From IMG/VR virus record IMGVR_UViG_3300045988_137643, positions 1 through 64,000 of that record: DNA of 64,000 bases; one strand, written 5' to 3'. The notes under the pieces are model-generated. The model was given only the letters and a program-made list of their open reading frames with translations, was not told where the DNA came from and ran no database searches. Shown here one piece after another: positions 1,739-52,410 of the stretch. This DNA comes from a virus. Its lineage: Duplodnaviria > Heunggongvirae > Uroviricota > Caudoviricetes. How positions within the stretch are numbered: the stretch's first letter is position 1; every line of letters begins with the position of its first letter. The position numbers and the translations under genes were made by a program.

Positions 1739-1802
1739 AAAAACAACCAACCTCTTTATGGCAGGCTACCGAAAAGACCCACCTCTTCTTCCCAGGCTAC
1801 CG
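1739..1802 (+). repeat. A+C-rich repeat element copy 1
   Basis: AAAAACAACCAACCTCT...CAGGCTACCG...ACCCACCTCTT...GGCTACCG; related copy at 4830-4881. Confidence 0.55.
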
Positions 1803-2408: not shown

Positions 2409-2549
2409 CAGGGAAAAGGCTGCATCCCGCTACAGAAACGGCTGGGTTGCCTTCGGGGAACGGCTGGAGGTTTTCAGGGAAACGGTCGAGTTGCCTGTGT
2501 GAATTTCGGGAAAAGGTTCGATGCCGGTTCAGGAACGGCGGCGTACCGG
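2409..2549. repeat. iteron-like array of about six degenerate 21-31-bp tandem units with core GGGAAA(A/C)GG
   Basis: units begin CAGGGAAAAGGCTG, GAAACGGCTGG, GGAACGGCTGG, GGGAAACGGTCG, GGGAAAAGGTTCG, GGAACGGCGG. Confidence 0.6.
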
Positions 2550-2902
2550 TATAGCGTGAGGGAGAGTTGCGACTGCCCACCTGTAATGTGCGGGAAGAAG
2601 AGAGGCGCTCACGTGCAGGCGAACTTACTTCCCGCTGGATTCCCTCTGAATGCCCAGCTACAGCGTAATTGTGCCAGACAGCCAGCGGGTCACAATCGAT
2701 TTCAGTAGGTTTTCGGGGAGAGGATTATTCTGCCCACCAGCCATCTTCGGCCACTAAATCAGAATAATGTAAAAAGTGTACTCGGTACTGAACCTGAAAA
2801 CTCACTGCCAAAACCACATTCACCGGAATAAAATCCTTTTTCGCCTATACGTTATTACGATAATAACACCAATAAGAAAACATGTTGTTTAAGGATTGCT
2901 TT

Positions 2903-3232
2903 ATGTTTGCACATATCGACATCAACCAAATTAAGAAATTGACTCAAAAAGAGTTTGACCAGTTCTGTGAGCTGGAAGGTTGGTCTTCCACTCTGATCAA
3001 TTCGCGGTGGGTGCTTGAGCTGATGACTCGTGATGACGCTCCTGCTTTGATGATTTGCGACATGGGTGAAGATGCTGACTTTATGGATATGAGCGAATTT
3101 TGTGTGGACACATACAACCGCAGCCAGAAGTACTACTTCACATGCGATAGCGAGAATGACGTGATTTCTAAGGTCTATCTTCACCTTGTCCAGCATTGGG
3201 ACGTTCAGGAGTTTCTTGAAGTATTCGCGTAA
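2903..3232 (+). CDS. hypothetical acidic early protein
   Basis: ORF track; ATG 2903 follows AAGGA RBS at 2891-2895; the track start at 2882 lies inside a palindromic element; D/E-rich product. Confidence 0.45.
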   Translation: MFAHIDINQIKKLTQKEFDQFCELEGWSSTLINSRWVLELMTRDDAPALMICDMGEDADFMDMSEFCVDTYNRSQKYYFTCDSENDVISKVYLHLVQHWDVQEFLEVFA

Positions 3233-3385
3233 CCTCAACCAAAGCCAGCAATGCTGGCTTAACTTCTCTGTGGCCGCAGGGAAGAACCCGCATATCGCTC
3301 ATGCGCCTGATCAATATGCTTTGTAGCCGTTTTCTTACTGGTATTATTTACGCCATTGAGAAAATAAGTTGTTTACGGAGTTGTG

Positions 3386-3697
3386 ATGAAAAAATCATTG
3401 GTTCTTGGTCTGGACAAAGACCAGAAGCGAAAAGAGAAGCCTGCGCTGGTTGCTCAATTAACTTTGCTGGACATCGTTGCCAATGGAACCTCTATTCGTC
3501 TGTTCCGTGAAACAGCGGTGTCTTTCGATAAAAACACCTTTACTCGTTATGTAATGAATGTTCGTCGCCAGCGTGGAAAAGGCTGGGTGGCATTTCAAAG
3601 AATGTGGCCGGAACATCAGCTCGAACTGGCTTTGATGGAAGTTAACCGCGTGGCCCAACAAGAAATTCAGAGAGCATCAGTGATGGCAATAGCCTGA
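3386..3697 (+). CDS. hypothetical protein
   Basis: ORF track; ATG 3386 after ACGGAG RBS; followed by terminator 3732-3759. Confidence 0.5.
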   Translation: MKKSLVLGLDKDQKRKEKPALVAQLTLLDIVANGTSIRLFRETAVSFDKNTFTRYVMNVRRQRGKGWVAFQRMWPEHQLELALMEVNRVAQQEIQRASVMAIA

Positions 3698-3731
3698 TAA
3701 TGTGCAAGTGGTAATTAGTCGACAGTACGAC

Positions 3732-3759
3732 AGCCCCGCCATCCTTACGGGGCTTTTTT
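3732..3759 (+). terminator. rho-independent-type terminator
   Basis: AGCCCCG...CGGGGCT stem followed by TTTTTT. Confidence 0.7.
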
Positions 3760-3764
3760 GTATT

Positions 3765-3780
3765 GTAAGTACATACTTAC
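3765..3780. promoter_or_regulatory. family B palindrome GTAAGTA-CA-TACTTAC
   Basis: 7-bp arms; immediately after terminator, upstream of 3824..4219. Confidence 0.55.
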
Positions 3781-3823
3781 GGTTATAAAATAGAAAAATA
3801 ACCAAGACACTACGGAGAGTGAA

Positions 3824-4219
3824 ATGACCGTTAAACGCGAAAAACTGACAGTTGATGTTTACTATGCCTCTGAAACTGCCGAAGGTAAGAATGTGGCAAA
3901 AATCACCGTTGTTACGTACAACACCGAAACTGGTGCCGAAGTACAGGCCAGTACGATCGTGCGTAAAGGTGATGCCTCCGGCGGCGAGTACGCGACTCAA
4001 TACCAGTCCATTCTCGATGCAACTGACCCGCTGCTGCTGAAAATCGAGAACTACTTCCGCCAGGTTGATGAAGAGGTGTTTGAAACCATGATGAGTATGG
4101 TTAATTCCGTATTCACCTCCAGCCTGAACACCAGCACCACCTGGATTGGCCAGTACGGTCTGCGTATTACCTCCGGCATTCCTGCTGACACCTTAATCCC
4201 TGAAAGCGTATTCGCTTAA
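3824..4219 (+). CDS. hypothetical protein
   Basis: ORF track; GGAGAG RBS; followed by terminator 4230-4256. Confidence 0.55.
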   Translation: MTVKREKLTVDVYYASETAEGKNVAKITVVTYNTETGAEVQASTIVRKGDASGGEYATQYQSILDATDPLLLKIENYFRQVDEEVFETMMSMVNSVFTSSLNTSTTWIGQYGLRITSGIPADTLIPESVFA

Positions 4220-4229
4220 TCCTCTTTAA

Positions 4230-4256
4230 ATGGCGCGTAAACCGCGCCATTTTCTT
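4230..4256 (+). terminator. rho-independent-type terminator
   Basis: TGGCGCG-TAAAC-CGCGCCA followed by TTTTCTT. Confidence 0.7.
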
Positions 4257-4263
4257 ATGCCCG

Positions 4264-4278
4264 ATAACAATTTGTTTT
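4264..4278. promoter_or_regulatory. family A palindrome (ATAACAA-T-TTGTTTT)
   Basis: one mismatch to consensus; same cassette context as 84-98 and 954-968. Confidence 0.55.
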
Positions 4279-4346
4279 CTGCCTTTATCTTACTGCGATA
4301 ATTACAACAACAAGAAAACAACGTGTTTATTAGGTGGTGAAATAAT

Positions 4347-4499
4347 ATGGAATACATTGTTACTGTCGCTTCGTCAGATCGGGAGTCGTTACTTGAGGCT
4401 ATCAGAAGCATGGAAAACATCATCATGTCAGAGCAGGAGCTTAATGGTTATCTTGAGATGGATGATTTTTCTATCAAAATGGAGGTGAAGAATGACTGA
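4347..4499 (+). CDS. small hypothetical protein (50 aa)
   Basis: ATG 4347 after AGGTGGTG RBS; not in ORF track (below size cut-off); 3' end overlaps the next start. Confidence 0.35.
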   Translation: MEYIVTVASSDRESLLEAIRSMENIIMSEQELNGYLEMDDFSIKMEVKND

Positions 4500-4773
4500 C
4501 TTCACCATTACCCCTAAAGCACAAAATGTATTTCTTGAATCATGGCTGGACTTGCCGGAAACAGAACAGCAAGAAATGGATCATGTGGATTATGACGAGC
4601 AGGTAAGCACGCGATTCTTCCACTTTGAGGGATGCGTTTACGACATTGCCGACTTCATGCGAGATGACCGCTTCCCTGAATGGCACGCAAGCTATCCACT
4701 AAACGCCTTTGCCATGCTGATGATCCGTGTGGATGATTCAGGGGATACCATCGACATCGGTCTGCTCCACTGA
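4492..4773 (+). CDS. hypothetical protein
   Basis: ORF track; overlaps upstream small ORF, suggesting translational coupling. Confidence 0.5.
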   Translation: MTDFTITPKAQNVFLESWLDLPETEQQEMDHVDYDEQVSTRFFHFEGCVYDIADFMRDDRFPEWHASYPLNAFAMLMIRVDDSGDTIDIGLLH

Positions 4774-4829
4774 ATAATAAGGTCACCAATGCTGGTGGCC
4801 TTAAATGACCATCCTGTTCCCCGCAGGCT

Positions 4830-4881
4830 AAAAACACCAACCTCTTACCTCCAGGCAACCGACAAACCCACCTGTTCCCGT
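4830..4881 (+). repeat. A+C-rich repeat element copy 2
   Basis: AAAAACACCAACCTCT...CAGGCAACCG...ACCCACCTGTT...GGCTACCG. Confidence 0.55.
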
Positions 4882-4943
4882 CCGGCTACCGCAACTTTCC
4901 ACTTTGACGCCTTATTCGTACAACGATAATTAACGCCAACAAG

Positions 4944-4958
4944 AAAACAATTTGTTAT
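4944..4958. promoter_or_regulatory. family A palindrome AAAACAA-T-TTGTTAT
   Basis: between GATAAT hexamer and RBS of 4978..5460. Confidence 0.55.
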
Positions 4959-7822: not shown

Positions 7823-8347
7823 TCAAAAAGGCAAAATTCGCTCAACCCAATCGAACAAAACAACTATTTTTCTACCGTTCTCGACACGTAGTGTAACCTG
7901 ACAAGCATCTGCGCCTGCTGACACCCCCTCAATTTCACGGCCATCCGCCATGTACACCCTTATAGATTTGTTTGCTTTGTAGGCTTGGTTGCAAATTGCA
8001 AAAAAATCGCGGCGTGATGGCCGATTATCGACATAATCAGGGTGAACTGTTAGTCGACCTTTGAAATCGTGAGCGATACTGTCAACCACACCTGATTCAA
8101 TTGTACTAATGCGTTCAAGTGGGAGCCTTATGCGATTTTCTTTATCAAAAGGGGCTGGGCAAAGGTCAACTTTGTTACGAGATGGCATGAGGCCATAAAC
8201 GTACATGCAAAACGCCTGACCATCTTCGAGAGTGGCCCTTACAGGAATTTGTTCTCTGCGCCAGAACATCAGTAGTTTTTCAACGTTAGTGTAATCTCGA
8301 GGCCAGACTTCTGCTGGCACACCGTAGGTGATGTCTTTCGTCGTCAT
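7823..8347 (-). CDS. hypothetical protein
   Basis: ORF track 7823..8386 shortened to Met 14 (8347) to remove overlap with the upstream lipoprotein gene. Confidence 0.5.
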   Translation of the reverse strand: MTTKDITYGVPAEVWPRDYTNVEKLLMFWRREQIPVRATLEDGQAFCMYVYGLMPSRNKVDLCPAPFDKENRIRLPLERISTIESGVVDSIAHDFKGRLTVHPDYVDNRPSRRDFFAICNQAYKANKSIRVYMADGREIEGVSAGADACQVTLRVENGRKIVVLFDWVERILPF

Positions 8348-8351
8348 ATCA

Positions 8352-8771
8352 TTATAAAGTGGTTGGCAATATATCCATTGTACCATCCCAGGTAGTGAAA
8401 ACCCGATATGTTTTCGCGTCGCCTTGCTTTAGTTTTATTTCTCGCTCCATCCTGGAGGGGTTAAATGCGCAAAGACCTGAACTTTCAATTGATGTCCCAA
8501 CGATCCAATCTCCTTCATTAAGATAGAAAGTTGCTTTTTCACCAGGTTCCAATTTTGCTGCCGTTTCTCCATTGATGAATATAGAAGCGTTACATCCAGA
8601 ACCAACCAGCCCTTTGTCTCTAACTATTGTTAGACTAGACTCATGTGGTGTTTGATATTTAAATGTTCTGCTTTGAGGTGCATACTTTGCCTTTGAAACA
8701 GATATAGATGAAGATGAACACCCAATTAGTGATGTGGCTAGTGTTAGAATAATTAGGTTTGTTGCTTTCAT
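8352..8771 (-). CDS. lipoprotein
   Basis: signal peptide with lipobox LIGC (MKATNLIILTLATSLIGC). Confidence 0.6.
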   Translation of the reverse strand: MKATNLIILTLATSLIGCSSSSISVSKAKYAPQSRTFKYQTPHESSLTIVRDKGLVGSGCNASIFINGETAAKLEPGEKATFYLNEGDWIVGTSIESSGLCAFNPSRMEREIKLKQGDAKTYRVFTTWDGTMDILPTTL

Positions 8772-11500: not shown

Positions 11501-11518
11501 GTGGATTGTAGCAATAAA

Positions 11519-12199
11519 ATGGATGTAAAAATCACGATTTTGCAGGTTGATGTTGCCAACCTTCGCCCGAATACCTGGAACACCAATTCGGTTGGTGCGC
11601 AGAATTTTGAAAAACTGAAAGGTTCTATCGAAAAATTGGGCTTTTTTAAGCCAATTTTGGCTCGTGAACTTGAAGATGGATGTTTTGAAATCCTCGGCGG
11701 CGAACATCGCTGGCGTGCTGCTATTGAGCAAGGAATTTCAACGGTTCCGGTGCTTTCTGTGGGCAAAATTAGCGATGTCGTGGCTAAACAGATGTCACTG
11801 GTGGACAACGAGCGATACGGTGAAGACGACCAAATCGCATTGCAACGCTTCATTGAAGAAATTCAGTCAGAACTTGACTATCAACTGTCTGAAATCGCCC
11901 CGTATGACGACGAAATCTCGATGGTTTTAGCAAAAGAGGCGGCAATCGACCTTGAAGCACTGGAGGCGTTGTCTCGTGGTAGTGATGAGCCTGTCGATAC
12001 CGACAAACGAGAGAAAACCGAACGTGTGGGTGCGGAACATCAGACCATGCGCTTCAAAGTAACTTTCGATGCGTCAGATCGTGTTGCAGAAACCATAAAA
12101 AACATCATCAAAGAGCAGGCTATTAACACCGGTAATGAAATGGAGAACGCTGGTGAGGCTCTGGTGTGGCTGGTCGACTACTACAAGGAGCGTATGTAA
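11519..12199 (+). CDS. ParB N-terminal-domain (ParB/Srx fold) protein
   Basis: ParB box GGEHRWRAA; start moved to ATG 11519; palindrome 11483-11500 upstream. Confidence 0.7.
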   Translation: MDVKITILQVDVANLRPNTWNTNSVGAQNFEKLKGSIEKLGFFKPILARELEDGCFEILGGEHRWRAAIEQGISTVPVLSVGKISDVVAKQMSLVDNERYGEDDQIALQRFIEEIQSELDYQLSEIAPYDDEISMVLAKEAAIDLEALEALSRGSDEPVDTDKREKTERVGAEHQTMRFKVTFDASDRVAETIKNIIKEQAINTGNEMENAGEALVWLVDYYKERM

Positions 12200-12867
12200 T
12201 GACCAAAAAGTTTGAAATCGTATATCGCGACCCGGCAGATCTTATTCCCTATGAGATGAATGCCAAAAAGCATGATGAACAGCAGATCCGAGATCTGGCC
12301 GCAGCCATTAAAAAGCGCGGGTTTGACCAGCCAATTACGGTCGATAAGAACGACGTAATTATTACTGGCCACGGCCGCCGTGAGGCTGCAATTTTTGCTG
12401 GACTTGAGCGCGTACCGGTTATTGTTCGCGATGATCTCAGTGATGACGAGGTTCGTGCGAAGCGCCTTGAAGATAACCGACTTGCCAGCATTGATTACGA
12501 TGCAATTAAGCTACAGAAAGAGCTTGAGTCGCTTGTTCTGGACGATATCGAGGTTTTCGGCTTTGAAGAGCGTGAGTTGAATGTTCTCGTTGGCAGCATG
12601 ACAGAAGAAATGGACACCGACTCGCTAGTTATCGATCTTGGCGAAGAAACTAAACGACAGAAGGATGAACACACCGAGATCAGTCGTGAAGTTGCAGCGG
12701 AAGAAGTACGTGTTGTCGACGTATTGGGCTTTAAAACGCTCCCTGCTGGCTCTGCCATTGTTGTTGGTGATTTGCTTGCCCACATGGAAGAAATGACGGG
12801 AGAAAGCGGGGTAGACGCATTTGTGGCATATGCGGAGAAGATCTCTTCCGGGGAGATGGCTGCATGA
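12199..12867 (+). CDS. second ParB N-terminal-domain protein
   Basis: motif ITGHGRREAA; start ATG 12199 overlaps the previous stop (TAATG) with AAGGAG RBS. Confidence 0.7.
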   Translation: MTKKFEIVYRDPADLIPYEMNAKKHDEQQIRDLAAAIKKRGFDQPITVDKNDVIITGHGRREAAIFAGLERVPVIVRDDLSDDEVRAKRLEDNRLASIDYDAIKLQKELESLVLDDIEVFGFEERELNVLVGSMTEEMDTDSLVIDLGEETKRQKDEHTEISREVAAEEVRVVDVLGFKTLPAGSAIVVGDLLAHMEEMTGESGVDAFVAYAEKISSGEMAA

Positions 12868-13529
12868 GCAAATACATCATCAACGTATCGTTTCAGACAC
12901 GCGTAAATAAAACCACGCGCACGTTGGAAATCGCTGAGTCGTTCGGGCTTGGCCTGGACGAAAAAGAGTGGACGCTTTACGACAATCTGGAGCTGGAAGT
13001 GAAGCAGGGCGATGTGGTGTACATCACCGGCCAATCCGGTTCCGGCAAATCCGTTGTGCTGCGCGAGTTGCAACGACAGATGAAGGATGAAGGGCTGTCT
13101 GTAGCCTCCATCGATGATTTTACCTTCGATAATGAGGTTAACGTCATCGATCAGTTGGGCAAAACGACCAGTGATGCGCTTGGGTTGTTATCTATGGCTG
13201 GTCTGAACGATGCATATCTGTTTGTTCGCAAGCCTTCTGAAATGTCAGACGGCCAGAAATATCGTCTCAAGATTGCCAAACTGATTGAGTCAGGCGCTAA
13301 AGTGTGGGCTGCTGACGAGTTCGGCGCTGTTCTCGACCGTGTAACCGCTCAGGTTGTGGCGTCTAACCTCCAGCGTGCCGCTCGAAAGGTTGGTGCGACG
13401 GTAATGGTGGCGACGACTCACGAAGACCTGAAGAACGCGCTGCGCCCGGATATGCAGATCACCAAGCACTACAAAGAACGCGTGAAGGTGGAATATCACA
13501 ATGGTAGTCACGATGAGGTCCATTCATGA
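12864..13529 (+). CDS. P-loop NTPase
   Basis: Walker A GQSGSGKS, Walker B-like VWAADEFG; ATGA start/stop overlap with upstream gene. Confidence 0.65.
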   Translation: MSKYIINVSFQTRVNKTTRTLEIAESFGLGLDEKEWTLYDNLELEVKQGDVVYITGQSGSGKSVVLRELQRQMKDEGLSVASIDDFTFDNEVNVIDQLGKTTSDALGLLSMAGLNDAYLFVRKPSEMSDGQKYRLKIAKLIESGAKVWAADEFGAVLDRVTAQVVASNLQRAARKVGATVMVATTHEDLKNALRPDMQITKHYKERVKVEYHNGSHDEVHS

Positions 13530-14692: not shown

Positions 14693-14716
14693 TCGGTCTG
14701 GGAGCTTATTTAAAGA

Positions 14717-14771
14717 CCTGCTTCTGTATATATAAATAATAAGTAACTTATTAAATATATACGGAAGCAGG
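14717..14771. repeat. large (~55 bp) palindromic hairpin element with 17-bp perfect core TAATAAGTAACTTATTA; copy 1
   Basis: outer stem CCTGCTTCTGTATATAT/ATATATACGGAAGCAGG around the core; near-identical copy at 46136-46190. Confidence 0.75.
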
Positions 14772-31036: not shown

Positions 31037-31826
31037 TAAAGCAATCCCTGAGCTTGGCTCTGATGTTATGCAGCAAATCTATCTCTGCGCCATAAATCGC
31101 TACCCTAATGAAGCGTGTGGCTTTCTGGTTAGAACTAATGGCGACAAATATCGCTTTATGGAAGCGCGGAATGTTTCGGAGAACCCGCAGAACACTTTTG
31201 TAATGCACGTTGACGACATTATGGCGGCAGAGGATGCGGGTGATGTTATCGCAATCTGGCATTCACATACTGATGAATCAGCAGAAGCATCTGATGCCGA
31301 TCGTGCAGGCTGCGAAGCGACGGAAGTTCCGTGGATGATTCTGGCTATTCGCAAGAATGTTGAGGGAGATGCCCCTTTCCATTTTAGCGAGATGAATGTG
31401 ATCACACCTGATGGTTTCGAAATGCCATACCTGGGCAGACCGTATGTATTTGGCGTATTCGATTGCTGGATGTTGTGTCGGGACTATTTGAAGCGTGAGT
31501 TTAACGTCGAACTAAACCCGAACGCACACCTGCATATTCCATCGTGGTACACCGGCGATAACGACATTCTAGACCAGAACTACCGAAACGAAGGATTGGT
31601 GCGTCTTGCGCCCGGAACAGAGCCTCAACGTGGGGACATCTTCTTTATCCAATACGGGAAAATGCCTGACCACTGCGCGGTTTATATCGGCGATGGAATG
31701 ATTCTTCATCACCAGATCGACCGCCTAAGTTGTCGTGCTTATTACGGCGGGATGTATCAGAAACATACGACGCATCACTTGCGTCACAGAGACTTGCTCA
31801 AGGGAGATGAGACGTGTCTGAGTTAG
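31029..31826 (+). CDS. tail protein with JAB/MPN and NlpC/P60-like motifs (lambda K-like)
   Basis: AIWHSHTDESAEASDAD (HxH...D JAMM-like) and GVFDCWMLCRDY (Cys-peptidase-like). Confidence 0.7.
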   Translation: MGNKAIPELGSDVMQQIYLCAINRYPNEACGFLVRTNGDKYRFMEARNVSENPQNTFVMHVDDIMAAEDAGDVIAIWHSHTDESAEASDADRAGCEATEVPWMILAIRKNVEGDAPFHFSEMNVITPDGFEMPYLGRPYVFGVFDCWMLCRDYLKREFNVELNPNAHLHIPSWYTGDNDILDQNYRNEGLVRLAPGTEPQRGDIFFIQYGKMPDHCAVYIGDGMILHHQIDRLSCRAYYGGMYQKHTTHHLRHRDLLKGDETCLS

Positions 31827-43750: not shown

Positions 43751-44170
43751 ATGCTAAATTATCATGACAATACGCGTTCTATGCAGACGATCCGCACCAA
43801 TACTGCGGTTATCGACAGCTTTCCTATGCGTATTCACAACAGTGAAGACGCAGTAGAAGTGCGACGTATGTTGTGCCGTGAATCAGCTAACCGCCAGCAC
43901 TTCATCGTCACTTTTAAGAGCGATGTGGCGCGTGCCGAAAAGATCTCTAATTCTACGTCACTGGTTAAACCGTTGGCCGAGGTTGTCGCTAACGGTAAAC
44001 GAACCTCTTTTGTTTTAGATGTTGCTGAACAATATCCTGACTTGAAGTGTTTAGATCGTGATATTTCTTCACGAATCAAACAAGTTGTAGAGTCTTTTAT
44101 GAAGAAATTCTGTAAAATCGATGATATGGAACCATCAACGGCACAGAATACTTCATGGCACCATCTCTAA
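43751..44170 (+). CDS. hypothetical protein
   Basis: ORF track; overlaps downstream gene by 16 nt. Confidence 0.45.
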   Translation: MLNYHDNTRSMQTIRTNTAVIDSFPMRIHNSEDAVEVRRMLCRESANRQHFIVTFKSDVARAEKISNSTSLVKPLAEVVANGKRTSFVLDVAEQYPDLKCLDRDISSRIKQVVESFMKKFCKIDDMEPSTAQNTSWHHL

Positions 44171-44928
44171 TTGGTCAGGCGAACAGATTAATCCCTGAAA
44201 TAGAAGACTACAGCAAGGTCTTGTCTGAAATGCCGAGAGCGACGAGAATTATCGCTCTCGGTGAGTTCTATTTTATCTCCCGAGGTTTCGATCTAATTCG
44301 ATTTACCGAATACGAGCTTGTTGATTCGGCCTATGAACGCTGTATTGTTGGCGAGTGTCTTGAGTCATGTGATCCTGATTACCAAGAGCAGGAAGTTAAG
44401 CGACTCAAACGTGCTGGTTACACACCTCTTGAGATAGGAGCAGAAATTGAATCCTACAAGTTGCATGTGGGGCAGTCAGTCCAAACAGTCTTCCGCGTGG
44501 CCTACTGCGAGTTTCCAATCAAGGATAAATCTGGAGTAAAAGTCAGCGCCAAGCAGATTAGAGGGGTTTTTACTCATGCTGATTATATGGGATTAGGCAT
44601 CGCAAGTTTTGCTTACCTTTATCTCGTAGATAAGTATCAGTACTTGGTTTGCGATACGTTACAGACGGTAAAAGGCGCAACTCTTTGGGCTGTGAGTATG
44701 CGCAAACATGGACTGGTAGAAATTTACGATACGAAGAACGAAAATTTTATAGAGGAATTGGGTGAGGATGCCTGTGGCGTAAGTGGTTTTATTCCGTGGG
44801 ATATTGGTAAGTCTGACGGAGGCCAGATGCGAAGACGTGAAGAGTGGGGGACTAATAAAATCAATCTCACCCCAGGTGCTTGTACTCATATAGTGAACAT
44901 TCTGAGTAAACGATCTATGAATCCATAA
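44155..44928 (+). CDS. hypothetical protein
   Basis: ORF track, 257 aa; strong terminator directly downstream. Confidence 0.5.
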   Translation: MAPSLIGQANRLIPEIEDYSKVLSEMPRATRIIALGEFYFISRGFDLIRFTEYELVDSAYERCIVGECLESCDPDYQEQEVKRLKRAGYTPLEIGAEIESYKLHVGQSVQTVFRVAYCEFPIKDKSGVKVSAKQIRGVFTHADYMGLGIASFAYLYLVDKYQYLVCDTLQTVKGATLWAVSMRKHGLVEIYDTKNENFIEELGEDACGVSGFIPWDIGKSDGGQMRRREEWGTNKINLTPGACTHIVNILSKRSMNP

Positions 44929-44950
44929 ACCCGCTACGGCGGGTTTTTTT
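44928..44950 (+). terminator. rho-independent-type terminator
   Basis: AACCCGC-TACG-GCGGGTT followed by TTTTTTT. Confidence 0.8.
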
Positions 44951-45029
44951 GTTATTAAGCCCCCCTATGTACCTATCATTAAACCTTTACACCGCAGCCG
45001 TAGGCATTTAGGCTATATCACATATAAGA

Positions 45030-45042
45030 AAACAAGTTGTTT
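45030..45042. promoter_or_regulatory. family A palindrome AAACAA-G-TTGTTT upstream of parA
   Basis: followed by GATAAT hexamer and AAGGGA RBS. Confidence 0.6.
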
Positions 45043-45077
45043 CAGACGATAATTATATACGCAAAGGGAACTCTCCA

Positions 45078-45746
45078 ATGACCAAGATCTTTGTGGTTGG
45101 CGGCACAAAGGGCGGGCCTGGCAAATCCACCGTTGCCCAGCAAATTGCCGTTTGCCTGAAAGTCAAAAAGAAGAAGAAGGTTTATATCACCGATATAGAT
45201 ATTCAGCGCACGACAACGAGCTGGTGTGAAGACCGTCGACAGAACGAAGACCTTGAGCTGATTCCTTTTGCATACGTTCAGGATGACATCATTAAGCACC
45301 TAAAATCGCTTCAGGGTAGAGCTGAGTATGTAGTGGTAGATGCTGGTGGCTTCGACTCCGAAATTCAGCGACAAGCGATGCTGATGGCTGACGTTATCAT
45401 TATCCCGCTGCGTCCTAAGCGTCGTGATTTGAAATCTTTACGTGACATCGATCCTATTATCGACAATGTTCGCAATGTAAACGATAAAGTGAAGGTCCGC
45501 GCGGTCATGAACCAGTGCCCGGCTTTGCCATCACAAGTGTCTCGCATTCTGGCGGCTAAAGAGATTGTCGAGACGTTTGGCATCGAGTCTGCGCCTGTCA
45601 ATCTATATAACCGCAACGTCTACGATGATGCGGAAGAGTCTGGTCGTTCTATCTTTGAAATGACCGGTAGCGAGCGCGACAAAAAGGCGGAAGCCGAGTT
45701 TGAAGAATTTGTAGATTATCTGTTGAGTCTGGAGGAAGAAGAATAA
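45078..45746 (+). CDS. parA: ParA/MinD-family partition ATPase
   Basis: deviant Walker A GGTKGGPGKST; 222 aa without N-terminal HTH (type Ib-like); operator palindrome upstream. Confidence 0.85.
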   Translation: MTKIFVVGGTKGGPGKSTVAQQIAVCLKVKKKKKVYITDIDIQRTTTSWCEDRRQNEDLELIPFAYVQDDIIKHLKSLQGRAEYVVVDAGGFDSEIQRQAMLMADVIIIPLRPKRRDLKSLRDIDPIIDNVRNVNDKVKVRAVMNQCPALPSQVSRILAAKEIVETFGIESAPVNLYNRNVYDDAEESGRSIFEMTGSERDKKAEAEFEEFVDYLLSLEEEE

Positions 45747-46105
45747 TGTCCATGAAAATGGGTGACCTAGCAAAGCGCAAAGAGCCTGATGCACCGGCTA
45801 AGAACACAACTCCTTTGCGCCAACCAGTCAGACCACAGGGACGCCCGACTCGTGGCAAAGAGAAAATTAAAAGCCGCACAATGTCACTGGAAGACGAATA
45901 CTTCGAACTGCTGGAGATGATGAAGTTCATCCCTCGCTTCGAGAAATTCACCCGCTCTGATGTGATTCGTGCTGCTATTTTCCATCTTGCGGAGAAGACA
46001 CCGCAGGAAATCGAGGACATCGTGAAACTTAACGAGGCGATCACAGCTGCCGATGTAACGATGCGTACCGATGAAATCAAGCGAGAACTCATGAAAAAAG
46101 GCTGA
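45746..46105 (+). CDS. ribbon-helix-helix partition partner (ParG-like)
   Basis: ATGA-coupled to parA; C-terminal RHH-like segment; large palindrome 46136-46190 downstream. Confidence 0.6.
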   Translation: MSMKMGDLAKRKEPDAPAKNTTPLRQPVRPQGRPTRGKEKIKSRTMSLEDEYFELLEMMKFIPRFEKFTRSDVIRAAIFHLAEKTPQEIEDIVKLNEAITAADVTMRTDEIKRELMKKG

Positions 46106-46135
46106 CAACTTCCGGTCTGGCAGCTTCAATCAGAA

Positions 46136-46190
46136 CCTGTTTCTGTATTTAAATAATAAGTAACTTATTAAATATATATACGGAAGCAGG
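46136..46190. repeat. large palindromic hairpin element, copy 2, immediately downstream of partition operon
   Basis: same 17-bp core at 46154-46170 with flanking stem CCTGTTTCTGTA.../...TACGGAAGCAGG. Confidence 0.75.
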
Positions 46191-46307
46191 TCTTTTAAAA
46201 GACACCCACCAGAACAACTCCCTTCCGTTTTCACTTCCAAAAACTGACACCAGTCGCTATCATCCGCTCATTGTGATAAGTAAGTAACTACCTACCAGGT
46301 GAGCCAC

Positions 46308-47091: not shown

Positions 47092-48432
47092 ATGACCGAA
47101 CTTTGCCATACAGGACGCGGGCTGTCCGAAGAGTTTGATGAAGATTTCCAGAACAGATTGACGGCATATTTTTGTCGTGATCACGAGTTTCTTACTCGTG
47201 CGGGAGATCTGGTTGTACCTAGCCAATTTGCCAATGCGGCCAATGCCATATTGGTTAATATGGTTTCGGGCTATTACCGTATGTACAAGAGCGCGCCCTC
47301 TTCATCTGCAATTCTGGATATGCTTAAGCGTGCGAAACGCGATAAGACTATCCGTGAGGAACTATTCGCCGATGTTGTTGCTGCGTTTAAGCGCATCCTT
47401 GCAGAAAAATTGTCCGATACCTCGTACATGGTTGACCAGGTATCAACCTTCGCAAAAAGCGTAGCGTTTGATGATGCTCTGATTAAGGCTGCTGAACTGA
47501 AAGAGAAGGGCGACTTTCAGGGGGCGATGGCAATCATGGCCAAGGTTCAGCAGATTGGATCGAACGAAGCGACCGGAATCTATGACTACTACACCTCCGC
47601 AAGTGAGCGATTGAAAGCGCGTGAATATGAGGCTTCAGAGGAGTATGTACCAAACAGTATTACAACTGGACTCCCTCTTCTCGATAGGTTGCTGTACCAA
47701 AAAGGCTGGGCAAAGCGCGAAATGGTGCTCTTCATGGGGTTCGCTAAATCCGGTAAATCGACCGCAATGGGTGAGTTTTCCATAAACGCAACGCTTGCTG
47801 GCTACAATGTACTGTATCTCTCGCTGGAGGTTCACACCAACATTTTGTCCGACCGTTTTGATGCAAGATTGTCGGAGACGGAAATGTCCAAGCTGGTGGA
47901 ACGGCGCGATGAAGTTCATCGTAAGTTGGCAGAGTTGGGAGCCACTAAGGGGATTGGTAGTTTGTGGGTTGTTGAGCGTCCGTCAGGAAGTATGTCACCG
48001 GCAGATCTGGACCGTATGCTTAACAGTATGAAAGCCAATGGCATGGTGCCTGACATGCTTGTTGTCGACTACGCAGATTTGATGCGTGCCAGTTATGACC
48101 TTCGTGATGATCGCGCCAACATTCGTAGTATCTACACCGATTTACGTGCTCTTTATGACAAACATAACGTTGCTGGAATCACGGCATCGCAGACAAACCG
48201 TGAAGGTGGCGCGTCAGAAGTTGCCACAATGATGCACGCCGCCGACAACATCGAAAAAGTACGTATTGCTGACCTGGTAATAACGATCAACAAAACCGAA
48301 GAAGAAGAAGCGAAAGGAGAGGCTCGTCTCTACTTTGCTGGTTCACGTAACCAGCAGGGAGGGATCAGCATTCGTGTTAAACAAAACCTCGAACAAATGC
48401 GCTTCATTGAGCGGATCTTAGACGTTACCTAA
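47092..48432 (+). CDS. DnaB-like replicative helicase
   Basis: Walker A GFAKSGKST, Walker B MLVVDYADLM, RecA-like C-terminal domain. Confidence 0.8.
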   Translation: MTELCHTGRGLSEEFDEDFQNRLTAYFCRDHEFLTRAGDLVVPSQFANAANAILVNMVSGYYRMYKSAPSSSAILDMLKRAKRDKTIREELFADVVAAFKRILAEKLSDTSYMVDQVSTFAKSVAFDDALIKAAELKEKGDFQGAMAIMAKVQQIGSNEATGIYDYYTSASERLKAREYEASEEYVPNSITTGLPLLDRLLYQKGWAKREMVLFMGFAKSGKSTAMGEFSINATLAGYNVLYLSLEVHTNILSDRFDARLSETEMSKLVERRDEVHRKLAELGATKGIGSLWVVERPSGSMSPADLDRMLNSMKANGMVPDMLVVDYADLMRASYDLRDDRANIRSIYTDLRALYDKHNVAGITASQTNREGGASEVATMMHAADNIEKVRIADLVITINKTEEEEAKGEARLYFAGSRNQQGGISIRVKQNLEQMRFIERILDVT

Positions 48433-48439
48433 AAAATAA

Positions 48440-48465
48440 GCGTGGAGAACACCTCCACGCTTGAT
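48440..48465 (+). terminator. terminator-like hairpin after helicase gene
   Basis: GCGTGGAG-AACAC-CTCCACGC then T-rich TTGATTCATT. Confidence 0.5.
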
Positions 48466-48513
48466 TCATTGGTGAAACAACTTTTCTTTTGCCAAACCAC
48501 AAAAGAAAAACAC

Positions 48514-49695
48514 ATGAGCCTTTATGTTATATCAACATTTAGGTTGGTCACAATATTGCCTGTTAAAAGTGGAATTATCGTGAGCGAGCTGAAAGAGCTA
48601 ATTACCGAATTAGATTTTGAACAATGGTTGGACACTGAAGGTATCGTTTATCGACGTGGAGGCGTGAGTGCTCGCGGTCGTGAAGTGAATATCAAGGAGT
48701 GTCCGGTATGCGGCAGCTCCAACTGGAAGGTATATTTCAATCTGACCAGTGGCGTCGGCAAATGCTTCGCTGGTGATCATCCCGAAGAGATTCAGTTCAA
48801 TAAGCTGGTCTTCCTCAAGCACTACAGCGGTAAATCACGACGACAGTTCGAGGAATATGTGCAGAACGCTCTTCTTTCCCAGGGGTGGGCACCAAAGAAA
48901 GAAGAGATAGTGCTTACAAGCACAGTCGAGTTAGAGGGACCACTTGCACTCCCTCGTCATTACGAACTTCCTATAGATGGCCGTCTTCCAGACTATCTGG
49001 TTGAACGAAACATATCGCCTGAAATGGCAAAGTATTTTGACCTACGATACTGCGTCGAAGGCAAGCACGCTTATGTAGATCCGTATACAGATCAGGTTAA
49101 AGGACAGATATTCGATATGCGAATACTGATACCGGTTTACGATCTGGATGGGGTAATGAAGACATTTCAGGGGCGAGACATTACCGGTACAGCTGAACGT
49201 CGCTACCTCTTTCCTATGCAGCTTCCAGCTTCAGGCAAGTTTCTCTACAACGGCCATAATGCGGTCGGCAAACAGACTGTAGTTGTCTGTGAGGGGGCGT
49301 TCGATGTTATGGGGGTTAAACGAGCTATTTTTGATGAAGAAACATTACGTGATTACGTGGAACCGATAGGAACGTTCGGGATGCATCTATCTGGTAACAC
49401 CACTCAGGATGCAGAAGATCAGTTAGGCGCGTTCCTGACGCTCAAGGCGCGTGGGTTACGTAATGTGATCATGATGTGGGATAGTGAAAAGCAAGCTATA
49501 CGCAACACTATGGCCGCAGCCAGGCGACTGACCAGTATCGGTCTTAATGTCAAAGTTGCGTGTTTGGGTGAGGAAGGACTCGACCCGGGCGGTGCAACGC
49601 CAGAACAAATTATCAAAGCCTATTATCGGGCAAAACCGTATACCAAACAGTTGGAGTTGCAAAGCAAGGTTTTGGGCATTAAGGCTCTATCGTAA
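48514..49695 (+). CDS. DnaG-like primase (zinc ribbon plus Toprim)
   Basis: CPVCGSSNW...KCFAGDH zinc-binding motif, VVVCEGAFDVMG Toprim glutamate, MWDSEKQA acidic motif; start moved to ATG 48514. Confidence 0.75.
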   Translation: MSLYVISTFRLVTILPVKSGIIVSELKELITELDFEQWLDTEGIVYRRGGVSARGREVNIKECPVCGSSNWKVYFNLTSGVGKCFAGDHPEEIQFNKLVFLKHYSGKSRRQFEEYVQNALLSQGWAPKKEEIVLTSTVELEGPLALPRHYELPIDGRLPDYLVERNISPEMAKYFDLRYCVEGKHAYVDPYTDQVKGQIFDMRILIPVYDLDGVMKTFQGRDITGTAERRYLFPMQLPASGKFLYNGHNAVGKQTVVVCEGAFDVMGVKRAIFDEETLRDYVEPIGTFGMHLSGNTTQDAEDQLGAFLTLKARGLRNVIMMWDSEKQAIRNTMAAARRLTSIGLNVKVACLGEEGLDPGGATPEQIIKAYYRAKPYTKQLELQSKVLGIKALS

Positions 49696-49709
49696 CAAGT
49701 GCCGCTAAA

Positions 49710-49729
49710 ATAAGTAGATGATTACTTAT
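49710..49729. promoter_or_regulatory. family B palindrome ATAAGTA-GATGAT-TACTTAT
   Basis: 7-bp arms, 6-bp spacer; upstream of 49771..50553. Confidence 0.55.
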
Positions 49730-49770
49730 CTTTCTGTAAGAATACTTTCATCTGTTAGCTAGGAGTTGGT

Positions 49771-50553
49771 ATGAAAGACGAAATTCACAAATTAGCCTGC
49801 GACATCATTGATAAAACTGGTTTAGAAATCAGCGAGAGCAATCGACTAGACATCATTGAAAAAGCGGTAAAAACAGCAATGGATCATATCGCCACTCGTT
49901 TGGTTGAGATCCCGCTACCAGGGCTACCTTATCTGAAAGTTGAGTTACACGTATGGGGTGAACCTTCTTGTGCACGGCGTTCTGCATTAGTTGTTTTTAT
50001 TAGCAAAGAAAACCCGCTCAGTCTTAAAGTGCAGGTTGGTGCATGGATGGATGGCAAAGTGATCTACACAAATACCGTTTTTTGTGCGCCAAACGACAGT
50101 ATTATTGAAGAGGCTATTCAGGAATCACTTCTTACTATGCATAGCTTAGTTTTGCTGGAAGACAAGCAAAACTACGAAGAGTACTTACGGTCGATAAAAG
50201 GTGAGAGAACATTGTCACTTAAAGCCGATTTCGTTACCCCGACAAACCTGTTGGAAGTCTTGCTTAATAAAGGGGCTAATGATGCCGTAAATGTAATCAG
50301 AGAGAGTGAGTATGCGTCTCTTTGCGACATGTGCAAAAGCCAGTTGGATCTGGTGCATATCGTTATTGATGCTGGGAAGGCATGTGATGGCGTAATGGCG
50401 GAATTTGCTGGGAAGATGGTCAGGATTGCTAACGAATTACCGATGATAGAGCAAGAGGCTAAATCATACGCCACCAATCATGTCACAGAGCTTCTTGTCC
50501 CCTATCGCTTAGAAAGCAATCAGCGCAAGATGGTTAGCTGGGGAAGTTGGTAA
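49771..50553 (+). CDS. hypothetical protein
   Basis: ORF track; AGGAG RBS; palindrome 49710-49729 upstream. Confidence 0.5.
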   Translation: MKDEIHKLACDIIDKTGLEISESNRLDIIEKAVKTAMDHIATRLVEIPLPGLPYLKVELHVWGEPSCARRSALVVFISKENPLSLKVQVGAWMDGKVIYTNTVFCAPNDSIIEEAIQESLLTMHSLVLLEDKQNYEEYLRSIKGERTLSLKADFVTPTNLLEVLLNKGANDAVNVIRESEYASLCDMCKSQLDLVHIVIDAGKACDGVMAEFAGKMVRIANELPMIEQEAKSYATNHVTELLVPYRLESNQRKMVSWGSW

Positions 50554-50608
50554 TCTCTCCGCGCGTCGTTTTTTACGCAAATAACGATAGGTAAGTACAA
50601 GATTATTT

Positions 50609-51091
50609 ATGGCGGTAGTTGTGAAAACTGATTTGTCAAAAATCCCCTCTATTTCAGGAAATAATGGTTATTCACTTCGTTGTGAGGAAGTAAAGATAAA
50701 CGGTGAGTCGGCATATTGCAGCTACTCCGTTTGCCAGCACACCATTCTTGCCTTCAAAGAAAACCGTCTTCCTCGAACTTCATTCCAGTCGTGCGCAACC
50801 GCTATCAAAGCAGGCAAATGCAAGGCGTTAAAAATGATGCTTGAAGAGATTCGTAAAGGAGAATCTCTGTATTTCGAAGATATGACCGCGCTCATTAAGG
50901 AGGTTGAAGAACGGAATAAACAAGCCAGAACTTTAAAACGAAAACGTGACAGTGTAACGATTAATAGCATGGTTAAGAAGAGCGCCACATCACAAACAGC
51001 GATCACTGACGTGTATGCGGCGTTGCTTGAAGAAACAACAAAAGAAACACATGAGCAAATCGATCAACATATGGAGGCAAAACAACAATGA
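50609..51091 (+). CDS. hypothetical protein
   Basis: ORF track; overlaps ligase start. Confidence 0.5.
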   Translation: MAVVVKTDLSKIPSISGNNGYSLRCEEVKINGESAYCSYSVCQHTILAFKENRLPRTSFQSCATAIKAGKCKALKMMLEEIRKGESLYFEDMTALIKEVEERNKQARTLKRKRDSVTINSMVKKSATSQTAITDVYAALLEETTKETHEQIDQHMEAKQQ

Positions 51092-52410
51092 AAAAGTTGA
51101 TCGCACTTAAGCATAAGCTGGACGAAATGAAAGCTATGGGAACCAATGCAAAAAAAGAGGCATTGGCCAACATGGATGACTTCGAGCAAAGCATGGTTTC
51201 ATTGATGCTCAACCCTTTCATCCGTTTTGGGGTAAAGAAATACAAAGTGGCAGAGCCGCTTAGTGAGTCCGTCCCAAGTGACGAAAAAGCCATTGATATA
51301 CTGAATAAGCTGGCCTCTCGCGAGCTGACGGGGAACGCAGCAATAGCTGCTGTTGAGTCTATCGTGGCGTCAATGTGCGCCGATGGGCAGGACGTGTTCC
51401 GTCGTTTCCTCTTAAAAGATCCGAAAGCTGGCGTTGGGATTAGCCTATGCAACAAGGTTTTTGAAAATCCCATTCCGAAATTCGAGGTGCAGCTGGCGTC
51501 ACCGTATAAAGAAAAAGGTGACAAATACCCCTTCAAGCCAAATCCTAAAGCCAAATGGCCGATGATTGGCAGCCTTAAGCTCGATGGTTTGCGAGTAATT
51601 TGTGAGGTTATTGTTGACGAGGAAGAGGTTAACTTCCTTTCTCGTACTGGTAATCCAATCACGTCTCTCGATCACCTAAAGCCAGCCATGCTCGAATTAG
51701 GCAAACTTTCAGGCCACAAACACATCTTCTTCGATGGTGAAGGAACAGCCGGTTCATTTAACCAGTCCGTATCTGCATTGCGCAAAAAGAACGTGCAGGC
51801 AATTGGCGCTATTTATCATGTTTTCGACTTCTTCCTACCGGAATGGCGAGCACAGGCTAAATCCAAAGAGTATGCAAAGACAGGTATGAAGCTGAAAGAG
51901 CGCCTGGCTATGCTGGTGGCGTTGTTCAAAAACGATCGCAGTGAAGGCTACACACAAGACATTCACCTGCATCCGTTCTATATCATCCATAGCCACGAAG
52001 ACTTCATCGAACGCTTCATGAAACGCCTGGACGATAACGAAGAAGGGGAGATGGGCAAAGATCCGAACTCTGTTTACGAGTTTAAACGTACCCGCAGCTG
52101 GTGGAAGTTAAAAGACGAAGATTCAGAAGATGGTGAAATTATCGACTTTGAGCCGGGCGACCCGGACTCTGGTTTTGCCAACACACTTGGAAAAATTGTT
52201 ATTCGTCTTGAAAACGGCGTCATCGTTCGTGCGAGCGGCATTAAGCATAAATATCTGGACGAGATCTGGAACAACAAAGAGAAGTACCGTGGTCGTATTG
52301 TCGAGGTTCATTGTCACGAGAAAACACCGGACGGCAGCTTACGCCACCCACGACTGAAATGGCCGCGTTGCTTACGCGATACAGAAGATCGAATCGGAGA
52401 TAAAGAATGA
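51088..52410 (+). CDS. ATP-dependent DNA ligase
   Basis: adenylation motif I KLDGLR; size and position in replication module. Confidence 0.8.
   Translation: MKKLIALKHKLDEMKAMGTNAKKEALANMDDFEQSMVSLMLNPFIRFGVKKYKVAEPLSESVPSDEKAIDILNKLASRELTGNAAIAAVESIVASMCADGQDVFRRFLLKDPKAGVGISLCNKVFENPIPKFEVQLASPYKEKGDKYPFKPNPKAKWPMIGSLKLDGLRVICEVIVDEEEVNFLSRTGNPITSLDHLKPAMLELGKLSGHKHIFFDGEGTAGSFNQSVSALRKKNVQAIGAIYHVFDFFLPEWRAQAKSKEYAKTGMKLKERLAMLVALFKNDRSEGYTQDIHLHPFYIIHSHEDFIERFMKRLDDNEEGEMGKDPNSVYEFKRTRSWWKLKDEDSEDGEIIDFEPGDPDSGFANTLGKIVIRLENGVIVRASGIKHKYLDEIWNNKEKYRGRIVEVHCHEKTPDGSLRHPRLKWPRCLRDTEDRIGDKE

What the first reader, a model, noticed from the sequence alone, without database searches (positions are those of the whole stretch)
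45030..46190. Plasmid-type partition module inside a phage genome (phage-plasmid lifestyle)
A ParA with deviant Walker A (GGTKGGPGKST, 222 aa, no HTH) is translationally coupled to a 119-aa RHH protein, i.e. a type Ib partition system. Together with the replisome genes (47092..52410, dnaE at 62377), the XRE repressor and an integrase-family recombinase, this argues the element is maintained as an extrachromosomal prophage. From memory the gene content (CobS/CobT-like pair, DnaE, ligase, tRNAs) resembles SSU5/pHCM2-type phage-plasmids; this was not verified.
Basis: partly seen in the sequence, partly recalled or inferred. Interest (0 to 1): 0.5.

Follow-up and report, generated by a model that had tools for sequence, protein, structure and literature searches.

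The report
Partition genes of SSU5-like phage-plasmid

Summary
A 222-aa ParA ATPase gene (45078-45746) has a deviant Walker A motif and no N-terminal DNA-binding domain. It overlaps by one base (TAATG) a 119-aa ORF (45746-46105).

The whole 64-kb window is collinear, at 95-98% identity, with about 110-kb circular, non-mobilizable Escherichia plasmids such as pECOH89. It also matches isolated phages (Cyrano, PhiR41_1) and is 83% identical to Salmonella phage SSU5. In 5,426 complete E. coli genomes the cassette occurs in 263, at 555 places, all on plasmids and none on a chromosome.

ParA's closest solved relative is the type Ib ATPase ParF of TP228. The 119-aa partner has no annotated function (PHROG 5111). 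Four lines support it as the centromere-binding adaptor:
- It follows a ParA gene in four divergent lineages.
- It is under strong purifying selection (dN/dS 0.03-0.06).
- Its N-terminal 46 residues are predicted disordered.
- It gives five sub-threshold matches to ribbon-helix-helix families, all in one register.

The RHH fold is therefore likely but unproven. The centromere was not located.

The parAB promoter carries a 13-bp palindrome shared with at least 12 other promoters of the element.

The parts
44927..44946 (+). Intrinsic terminator of the upstream cargo gene (44155-44928). It marks the 5' boundary of the parAB transcription unit.
   Evidence: 8-bp stem with 5 GC pairs, followed by TTTTTGTTATT. 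Sequence.
44980..45045 (+). Conserved non-coding block upstream of parA. It holds an inferred promoter (-35 TTTACA 44986-44991, 17-nt spacer, -10 TAGGCT 45009-45014) followed by the operator palindrome. It is the best candidate for the regulatory site and possibly the centromere.
   Evidence: The block is 92-97% identical (61-64 of 66 bases) to SSU5, Klebsiella pJN2-26, Kluyvera and Buttiauxella elements, although synonymous divergence of the adjacent genes is 0.7-2.2 and the DNA just upstream is unrelated. The promoter hexamers are inferred by geometry. The consensus scan did not call them, because TAGGCT matches only 3 of 6.
45030..45042 (.). 13-bp palindrome AAACAAGTTGTTT. It is one of at least 13 copies of an operator-like site shared by promoters across the element.
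   Evidence: 33 matches with up to 2 mismatches, against 2.9 expected; the position is constant, 13-15 nt after a GATAAT-like -10 and 20-35 nt before the ATG; the site is kept in pMT1, which lacks this ParA/ParB pair.
45078..45746 (+). parA: a 222-aa ParA/ParF-type partition ATPase with a deviant Walker A motif (KGGPGKST) and no N-terminal HTH.
   Evidence: (ParF 4dzz and ParA 5u1g, E 3e-10, aligned over residues 9-200). dN/dS 0.04-0.065.
45746..46105 (+). 119-aa partner gene, the proposed centromere-binding adaptor. Residues 1-46 are predicted disordered and basic. Residues about 42-82 are a probable ribbon-helix-helix. Two further helices span 86-118.
   Evidence: invariant I41 R44 S47 E49 R70 D72 R75 L81. 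Models. Sub-threshold RHH matches in one register. Conserved pairing with ParA. dN/dS 0.025-0.057.
46113..46198 (.). AT-rich imperfect palindrome of about 80 bp directly after the partner gene. A second copy lies at 14694-14771. It is probably a bidirectional terminator or module insulator, and a less likely centromere candidate.
   Evidence: 84% identity between the two copies, and self-complementary. RNA fold -26.4 and -41.7 kcal/mol, z -4.3 and -8.8; 3-5 copies in SSU5, Cyrano, PhiR41_1 and CMS-2020a; the terS-side copy is kept in pMT1.

Best explanation
The region is the active-partition cassette of an SSU5-supergroup phage-plasmid, a siphovirus-type temperate phage whose prophage is a low-copy circular plasmid of about 110 kb. 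The cassette is its own transcription unit. A terminator closes the upstream cargo gene. A conserved promoter-operator block drives parA, and the 119-aa gene is translationally coupled to it.

Inferred mechanism, by analogy with type Ib systems such as ParF/ParG of TP228:
- The 119-aa protein dimerises through a ribbon-helix-helix core (residues about 42-82) and binds a centromere site on the plasmid prophage.
- Its disordered, basic N-terminal tail (conserved MGDLAK...PxRxPxxPQGRPxRGK) contacts ATP-bound ParA dimers spread over the nucleoid and stimulates their ATPase.
- The resulting ParA gradient moves sister plasmid copies apart before division.

Shown here: gene structure, family relationships, purifying selection, conserved gene pairing, the plasmid location of every close relative, and the identity of the element.

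Inferred: the RHH fold, the ParA-stimulating tail, the promoter hexamers, and the position of the centromere. The most likely position is the conserved 66-bp block upstream of parA. The alternative is the multi-copy palindrome.

The parAB promoter also carries the palindrome AAACAAnTTGTTT found at at least 12 other promoters of the element. Partition gene expression is therefore probably tied to an element-wide regulator rather than, or in addition to, autoregulation by the partner protein.
For: - ORFs and the one-base overlap.
- ParA family: Pfam AAA_31/MipZ/CbiA/ParA/VirC1; ParF and ParA of TP228 as closest solved structures, aligned over nearly the full length with Walker A, A' and B motifs matching; NCBIfam ParA_partition full length, 115 bits; phrog_164.
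- Partner protein: always directly downstream of a 221-229-aa ParA in four lineages at 25-40% identity; the family is small, with 18 representatives among 1.84 billion proteins; conservation is concentrated in the predicted beta-strand (I41, S43, R44, T45, S47) and at the start of helix 2 (R70, S71, D72, R75).
- RHH-family matches below threshold, all aligning to the same residues: Pfam RHH_1 in P0027 (E 0.005) and P0035 (E 0.11); the RHH protein ORF56 of pRN1, 2k9i (E 1.2); the NCBIfam aCcr1 RHH family (E 2e-4; aCcr1 is an RHH factor, PMC9976878); hhalign E 0.03 to the RHH-like partner of a 40%-identical ParA in Thalassotalea.
- Purifying selection on both genes.
- Own transcription unit and conserved upstream block.
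- Element identity and lifestyle; literature PMC7969092, PMC3999498 and PMC12977533.
Against: - The two AlphaFold monomer models are of low confidence (pLDDT 65 and 67) and show no strand. This is expected for an obligate-dimer RHH but is not evidence for one.
- hhalign against ParG itself found nothing.
- No array of iterated repeats typical of type Ib centromeres was found up- or downstream.
- ParA scores below NCBIfam's equivalog cut-off (115 versus 180 bits).
- No experiment on this cassette was found in the searched literature.
Confidence: 0.85

Rival explanations
1. The ParA-like ATPase and its small partner are not a plasmid-partition system. They serve another positioning or regulatory role in the phage cycle, for example a VirC1/VirC2-like DNA-processing accessory pair, a MipZ/MinD-like spatial regulator, or a transcription regulator pair acting on late genes.
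For: Pfam also matches MipZ (E 2.7e-13) and VirC1 (24.1 bits, at its cut-off). PGAP sometimes names the protein 'division plane positioning ATPase MipZ'. A 40%-identical ParA plus small partner sits in a conserved chromosomal position (radC-rpmB) in Alteromonadales, where plasmid partition is not the obvious role. The parAB promoter shares an operator with lytic and replication promoters.
Against: The best full-length matches are partition ATPases (ParF, ParA_partition, phrog_164). The hosts are about 110-kb, non-mobilizable, extrachromosomal replicons, which need active partition, and no other ParA was seen in the window. pMT1, which lacks this pair, carries a P1-type ParAB instead, which looks like functional replacement. 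No relaxase is present.
Confidence: 0.07
2. The true centromere-binding protein for this ParA is one of the two ParB_N-domain proteins encoded at 11501-12867, and the 119-aa ORF has an unrelated function.
For: Two adjacent ORFs carry the ParB N-terminal domain (E 2.4e-13 and 1.5e-8). A published screen used an SSU5 'parB' marker (10.1101/2025.09.12.675607).
Against: These genes lie 33 kb away in the packaging module, next to an ABC-type ATPase. They are retained in pMT1 alongside its own complete P1-type ParAB, so they are not tied to this ParA. The 119-aa gene, by contrast, is overlapped with parA and stays paired with it in four divergent lineages.
Confidence: 0.04
3. The 119-aa ORF is a RelE/ParE-type toxin, as annotated in phage Cyrano, which would make the pair an addiction module rather than a partition module.
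For: The annotation 'RelE/ParE putative toxin' on CYRAN_29.
Against: No RelE/ParE match appears in Pfam, NCBIfam, PADLOC or PDB. The predicted structure is a disordered tail plus four helices, not the RelE alpha/beta fold. No antitoxin-like partner is present, and the upstream gene is a ParA ATPase.
Confidence: 0.01

Closest known systems
ParF-ParG-parH of plasmid TP228 (type Ib partition)
   Same: Small Walker-type ATPase without an HTH; ParF is the closest solved relative (E 3e-10). A small downstream partner with a disordered N-terminal tail and a short DNA-binding core. The operon is preceded by a conserved regulatory block of about 100 bp, and parH is also about 100 bp upstream (PMC3130281).
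   Different: The partner is 119 aa rather than 76 and has two extra C-terminal helices. It has no detectable sequence similarity to ParG. No array of tetramer boxes was demonstrated. The promoter carries an operator shared with many other promoters of the element.
ParA-ParB of pCXC100 (type Ib, RHH ParB without recognisable sequence motif)
   Same: [quoted passage not shown] The 119-aa protein here presents the same situation.
   Different: No sequence relationship was tested or found. The host and replicon type differ (Gram-positive small plasmid versus a 110-kb phage-plasmid).
P1 ParA-ParB-parS and N15 SopA-SopB (partition systems of the classical phage-plasmids)
   Same: The same biological role: active segregation of an extrachromosomal prophage. 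N15 has dispersed palindromic centromeres, a possible analogy to the multi-copy palindrome seen here (own knowledge; PMC2394991 is cited in PMC11652158).
   Different: Those are type Ia systems, with a large ParA carrying an N-terminal HTH and a large HTH/ParB_N-type ParB. pMT1, an SSU5-supergroup member, carries such a P1-type pair instead of this cassette.
SSU5 gene pair SSU5_033 / SSU5_034 and the pECOH89, pHCM2, Cyrano and PhiR41_1 homologues
   Same: Direct orthologues. ParA is 92% and the partner 92% identical in amino acids to SSU5. The DNA is 97-98% identical to the E. coli elements.
   Different: Only annotation differs. SSU5 RefSeq calls a truncated 96-aa ORF, Cyrano calls it a toxin, and PGAP calls it hypothetical. 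Cargo genes inserted on either side of the cassette vary between relatives.

Membership tests
Type Ib ParA-based partition system | Small (about 200-230 aa) Walker-type ParA with deviant Walker A xKGGxxK[ST] and no N-terminal HTH domain | tested here: met
   222 aa, TKGGPGKST at residues 11-19, with the P-loop at the very N-terminus. It aligns over residues 9-200 to ParF.
Type Ib ParA-based partition system | Small centromere-binding protein gene immediately downstream in the same operon | tested here: met
   One-base overlap TAATG. The same arrangement occurs in four lineages at 25-40% identity.
Type Ib ParA-based partition system | Partner protein has a ribbon-helix-helix (or other non-ParB_N) DNA-binding fold | tested here: inconclusive
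   No ParB_N or HTH domain. Five sub-threshold RHH matches fall in one register. The helix pattern 48-61 / 70-82 fits, but the monomer models are of low confidence and fold searches returned nothing.
Type Ib ParA-based partition system | Centromere of repeated binding sites next to the operon | tested here: inconclusive
   No repeat array beyond chance. A conserved 66-bp block upstream and an 80-bp palindrome downstream are candidates only.
Type Ib ParA-based partition system | Partner stimulates ParA ATPase and the cassette stabilises a plasmid | not testable with these tools
   Requires biochemistry and plasmid-loss assays.
SSU5 supergroup of phage-plasmids | Shared gene repertoire and collinearity with SSU5, pHCM2 and pECOH89 | tested here: met
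   83% DNA identity to SSU5 and 95-98% to pECOH89-type plasmids over 92-96% of 25-kb segments. The gene order matches: tail fibre, lysis, parAB, helicase, primase, ligase.
SSU5 supergroup of phage-plasmids | Extrachromosomal (plasmid) prophage state | tested here: met
   For relatives: 555 of 555 places in 263 complete E. coli genomes are on plasmid records. The replicon of the window's own source cannot be seen, but no chromosomal flank lies within the 64 kb.
SSU5 supergroup of phage-plasmids | Forms infectious virions | not testable with these tools
   Close relatives are deposited as phage isolates (Cyrano, PhiR41_1, SSU5), and SSU5_pHCM2-type elements were found packaged after mitomycin C induction (PMC12977533). 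This particular element was not tested.
ParB/Spo0J (type Ia) centromere-binding proteins | ParB N-terminal (CTPase) domain plus HTH | tested here: not met
   The 119-aa protein has no ParB_N or HTH match. ParB_N proteins exist elsewhere in the window, at 11501-12867.
RelE/ParE toxins | RelE/ParE fold or family match | tested here: not met
   No match in Pfam, NCBIfam, PADLOC or PDB.

The most novel reading that the evidence does not exclude
The 119-aa protein (PHROG 5111, 'unknown function') founds an undescribed, narrowly distributed family of centromere-binding adaptors: an RHH-like core with a long basic tail and a two-helix C-terminal extension. In addition, the partition operon is wired into an element-wide regulon through the shared operator AAACAAnTTGTTT, so that segregation, replication (helicase promoter), packaging (terS promoter) and early genes answer to one regulator. 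In a stronger form, the multi-copy 80-bp palindromes would act as dispersed centromeres, as in N15.
Probability: 0.3. Interest if true: 0.4.

Novelty: already known. Interest (0 to 1): 0.18.

Why it matters
SSU5-type phage-plasmids are common in clinical Escherichia, Shigella, Salmonella and Klebsiella and can carry resistance genes such as CTX-M-15 (pECOH89, PMC3999498; PMC9600943). Their stable inheritance depends on cassettes like this one. The element and its ParA are already catalogued, so the finding adds no new biology. What it does show is that the partner protein is still annotated as hypothetical, truncated, or a toxin in public records, and that neither the centromere nor the shared operator has been mapped.

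Tried and rejected
- **A wider family to gain annotation.** The exhaustive profile search found just 18 cluster representatives, none annotated.
- **Centromere hunt.** A repeat search and a shared k-mer search across five divergent parAB loci returned only the A-rich word AAAACAA. On inspection this was mostly compositional and not palindromic outside the SSU5-like loci, so it was rejected as a ParB site.
- **The 119-aa protein as the binder of the AAACAAnTTGTTT operator (omega/KorB-style global regulator).** This is made unlikely because pMT1 lacks the gene yet keeps six well-conserved sites at homologous promoters, together with two HTH regulators.
- **The 80-bp palindrome as a centromere specific to this cassette.** This is weakened because pMT1 keeps the terS-side copy, and because relatives have genes inserted between parB and the palindrome.
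- **Toxin annotation from Cyrano.** Rejected.
- **Tetramers TAGG/TAGG/TAAG/CAAG at 8-bp phase (45001-45036).** Noted as a parH-like idea, but it is post hoc and not reproduced in L044. It is left as a lead only.

Full report
**1. Observation**

The window carries an ORF at 45078..45746 (+, 222 aa) beginning MTKIFVVGGTKGGPGKST, and an ORF at 45746..46105 (+, 119 aa). The junction reads GAATAATGTCC. The TAA stop of the first gene therefore shares its last A with the ATG of the second, and GGAGG lies 10 nt upstream. This is the arrangement expected for translational coupling.

- The first protein has the deviant Walker A motif of ParA/MinD ATPases and starts at the P-loop, so it has no N-terminal DNA-binding domain.
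- It matches Pfam AAA_31, MipZ, CbiA, ParA and VirC1.
- It matches NCBIfam ParA_partition over the full model, at 115 bits, below the equivalog cut-off of 180.
- It matches PHROG 164, 'ParA-like partition protein'.
- Its closest solved relatives are ParF and ParA of plasmid TP228, the type Ib paradigm (E 3e-10). Walker A, A' and B segments align.

An intrinsic terminator (44927-44946) closes the preceding gene, so parAB is a separate transcription unit.

**2. What the element is**

- The 3.5 kb around the cassette is 97-98% identical to Escherichia phages PhiR41_1, Cyrano and CMS-2020a, and 83% identical to Salmonella phage SSU5, where the gene is annotated 'ParA-like partition protein'.
- It matches 724 PLSDB plasmids, 691 of them non-mobilizable. 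These include pECOH89 (NC_023916) and about 109-kb circular E. coli plasmids at 98% identity.
- The first 25 kb and the last 25 kb of the window are collinear with the same plasmids, at 92-96% coverage and 95-98% identity.
- Among 5,426 complete E. coli genomes, 263 carry the cassette. All 555 matching places are on plasmid records and none is on a chromosome.

This is the SSU5 supergroup of phage-plasmids (PMC7969092; pECOH89 in PMC3999498). Members of it have been shown to be packaged after induction (PMC12977533).

**3. The 119-aa partner**

The protein has no Pfam family, and PHROG 5111 is 'unknown function'. PGAP calls it hypothetical. SSU5 RefSeq annotates a truncated 96-aa version, although the conserved ORF is 119 aa. 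Cyrano labels it a RelE/ParE toxin, for which no support was found.

The family is very small: 25 clusters in the 5.8-billion-protein set and 18 representatives among 1.84 billion.

The evidence that it is ParA's adaptor is contextual and evolutionary.

- In four lineages only 25-40% identical to it, the homologue lies directly after a 221-229-aa ParA/MipZ-type ATPase, with a gap of 0-10 nt or an overlap.
- dN/dS is 0.025-0.057 at dS 0.7-2.2.
- Conservation is concentrated in an N-terminal MGDLAK motif, a basic PxRxPxxPQGRPxRGK stretch, the segment I41-S43-R44-T45-x-S47-x-E49, and R70-S71-D72-x-x-R75.
- Two AlphaFold monomer models (pLDDT 65 and 67) give a disordered 1-46 followed by helices 48-61, 70-82, 86-98 and 101-118.

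A short conserved segment followed by two helices, with the second helix starting at an S/T-R-S-D cap, is the ribbon-helix-helix pattern. Five independent matches, all sub-threshold, align RHH families to exactly these residues:

- Pfam RHH_1 in homologue P0027 (E 0.005) and in P0035 (E 0.11).
- The RHH protein ORF56 of pRN1 (E 1.2).
- The NCBIfam aCcr1 family (E 2e-4). aCcr1 is an RHH factor (PMC9976878).
- The partner of a 40%-identical ParA in Thalassotalea (hhalign E 0.03). That partner itself gives RHH_1 at E 0.12.

**4. Cis elements**

The 66 bp at 44980-45045 are 92-97% identical in SSU5, Klebsiella, Kluyvera and Buttiauxella elements. The DNA just upstream is unrelated, and synonymous sites of the neighbouring genes are near saturation.

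The block contains TTTACA, a 17-nt spacer, TAGGCT, and then the palindrome AAACAAGTTGTTT (45030-45042). The hexamers are an inference. The consensus scan did not call them, but the same geometry recurs in the divergent loci L044 and L045.

The palindrome is not specific to parAB.

- With up to two mismatches it gives 33 matches in the window, against 2.9 expected.
- It sits at a fixed distance, 13-15 nt after a GATAAT-like -10 and 20-35 nt before the ATG. It does so in front of the helicase gene (47060), CobT (58725), the terminase-side operon (14810, 14835) and a series of small early genes (85-4945).
- pMT1 of Yersinia pestis has replaced this ParA/partner pair and the helicase-primase module by IncFIB RepA and a P1-type ParAB. 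It still keeps six such sites at homologous promoters, and it keeps both HTH regulators.

The operator is therefore most probably read by one of those regulators, not by the 119-aa protein.

Directly after the partner gene lies an AT-rich palindrome of about 80 bp (46113-46198), with a second copy at 14694-14771.

- It folds strongly as RNA (-26 and -42 kcal/mol).
- It occurs 3-5 times in related phages.
- In SSU5 and Cyrano it is separated from parB by inserted genes.
- Its terS-side copy survives in pMT1.

I read it as a terminator or insulator between modules. A role as a dispersed centromere is not excluded. No repeat array typical of type Ib centromeres was found, so the centromere remains unlocated.

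**5. Mechanism**

The best-supported reading is a type Ib-like segregation machine.

- Dimers of the partner bind a centromere. The conserved block upstream of parA is the first candidate.
- The partner's basic, disordered tail engages nucleoid-bound ParA-ATP and triggers hydrolysis.
- The resulting ParA depletion zone moves plasmid copies apart.

The steps shown here are gene structure, family assignment of ParA, conserved pairing, selection, and the plasmid location of all relatives. The inferred steps are the fold, the tail function and the centromere position.

The tyrosine recombinase at 56710-57813 is then more plausibly a multimer-resolution enzyme, as Cre is in P1, than an integrase. 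This is an inference only; it is consistent with the absence of chromosomal copies.

**6. Comparison, novelty and score**

The cassette works like ParF/ParG-parH (PMC3130281, PMC7308502) and plays the role that ParAB plays in P1 and SopAB in N15. As a sequence it is an orthologue of SSU5_033/034 and of hundreds of deposited plasmid genes. No experimental study of this particular cassette turned up in the searched literature.

The finding is correct but already known. What remains open is the fold and binding site of the partner protein, and the meaning of the shared operator. Interest is low, about 0.18.

Noticed in passing
window 85, 955, 1006, 1684, 2878, 3362, 4265, 4316, 4945, 14810, 14835, 45030, 47060, 58725 (13-bp sites): An element-wide operator-like palindrome, aaGAAAACAAnTTGTTT, lies 13-15 nt after a GATAAT-like -10 and 20-35 nt before the start codon of many operons, including parAB, the helicase gene, CobT, the terminase side and small early genes. 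There are 33 matches against 2.9 expected. It is conserved in pMT1, which lacks this ParA/partner pair. The candidate binders are the HTH proteins 57808-58194 (-) and 7823-8386 (-).
   Followed up: partly
window 46113-46198 and 14694-14771: Two copies (84% identical) of an AT-rich palindrome of about 80 bp, each starting within 8 nt of a stop codon and ahead of the next operon. Related phages have 3-5 copies, pMT1 keeps one copy, and in locus L045 the two arms are about 190 bp apart. It is probably a terminator or insulator. A role as centromere or origin is not excluded.
   Followed up: partly
window 43751-44928 and 46106-46298; L001, L002, L039: Both flanks of the parAB cassette are variable cargo slots. 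Between the lysis genes and parA, this window has two unknown ORFs (PHROG 2594 and 3307), while Cyrano has a KacT toxin-antitoxin pair. Between the partner gene and the palindrome, relatives carry GIY-YIG, DUF2971 or other genes, and this window carries none.
   Followed up: partly
window 11501-13529: Two adjacent ParB_N-domain proteins and an ABC-type ATPase lie upstream of the packaging genes. They are conserved even in pMT1, so they are unlikely to be partition proteins. Their function is unknown.
   Followed up: no
L001 6826-7185 (SSU5 31162-31521); L002 6776-7135 (Cyrano CYRAN_29): There are annotation problems in public records. SSU5 RefSeq calls a truncated 96-aa version of the conserved 119-aa gene, and Cyrano labels it 'RelE/ParE putative toxin' with no supporting similarity.
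   Followed up: yes
L024 2956-4003 (Thalassotalea piscium chromosome) and L007-L037: Some thirty Alteromonadales genomes (Colwellia, Thalassotalea and relatives), including a complete chromosome and several contigs over 100 kb, carry a ParA 40% identical to this one. In L024, the only locus inspected, it is followed by an overlapping 130-aa protein with an RHH-like C-terminus and lies between radC and rpmB. Such a chromosomal setting suggests a role other than plasmid partition.
   Followed up: partly
L003 (JAEWTL010000041.1, 'Bacillota bacterium' MAG): A 10-kb contig binned as Bacillota encodes a ParA 93% identical to this enterobacterial one, with the same upstream block. It is most likely a mis-binned phage-plasmid contig.
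   Followed up: no
window 41-110 and 911-980: Two near-identical copies of a promoter-like segment (gcattttcatatagac.caatcccttctgatttac.cag..cctaAAACAATTTGTTTtctgc), about 870 bp apart, at the start of the early small-gene region.
   Followed up: no
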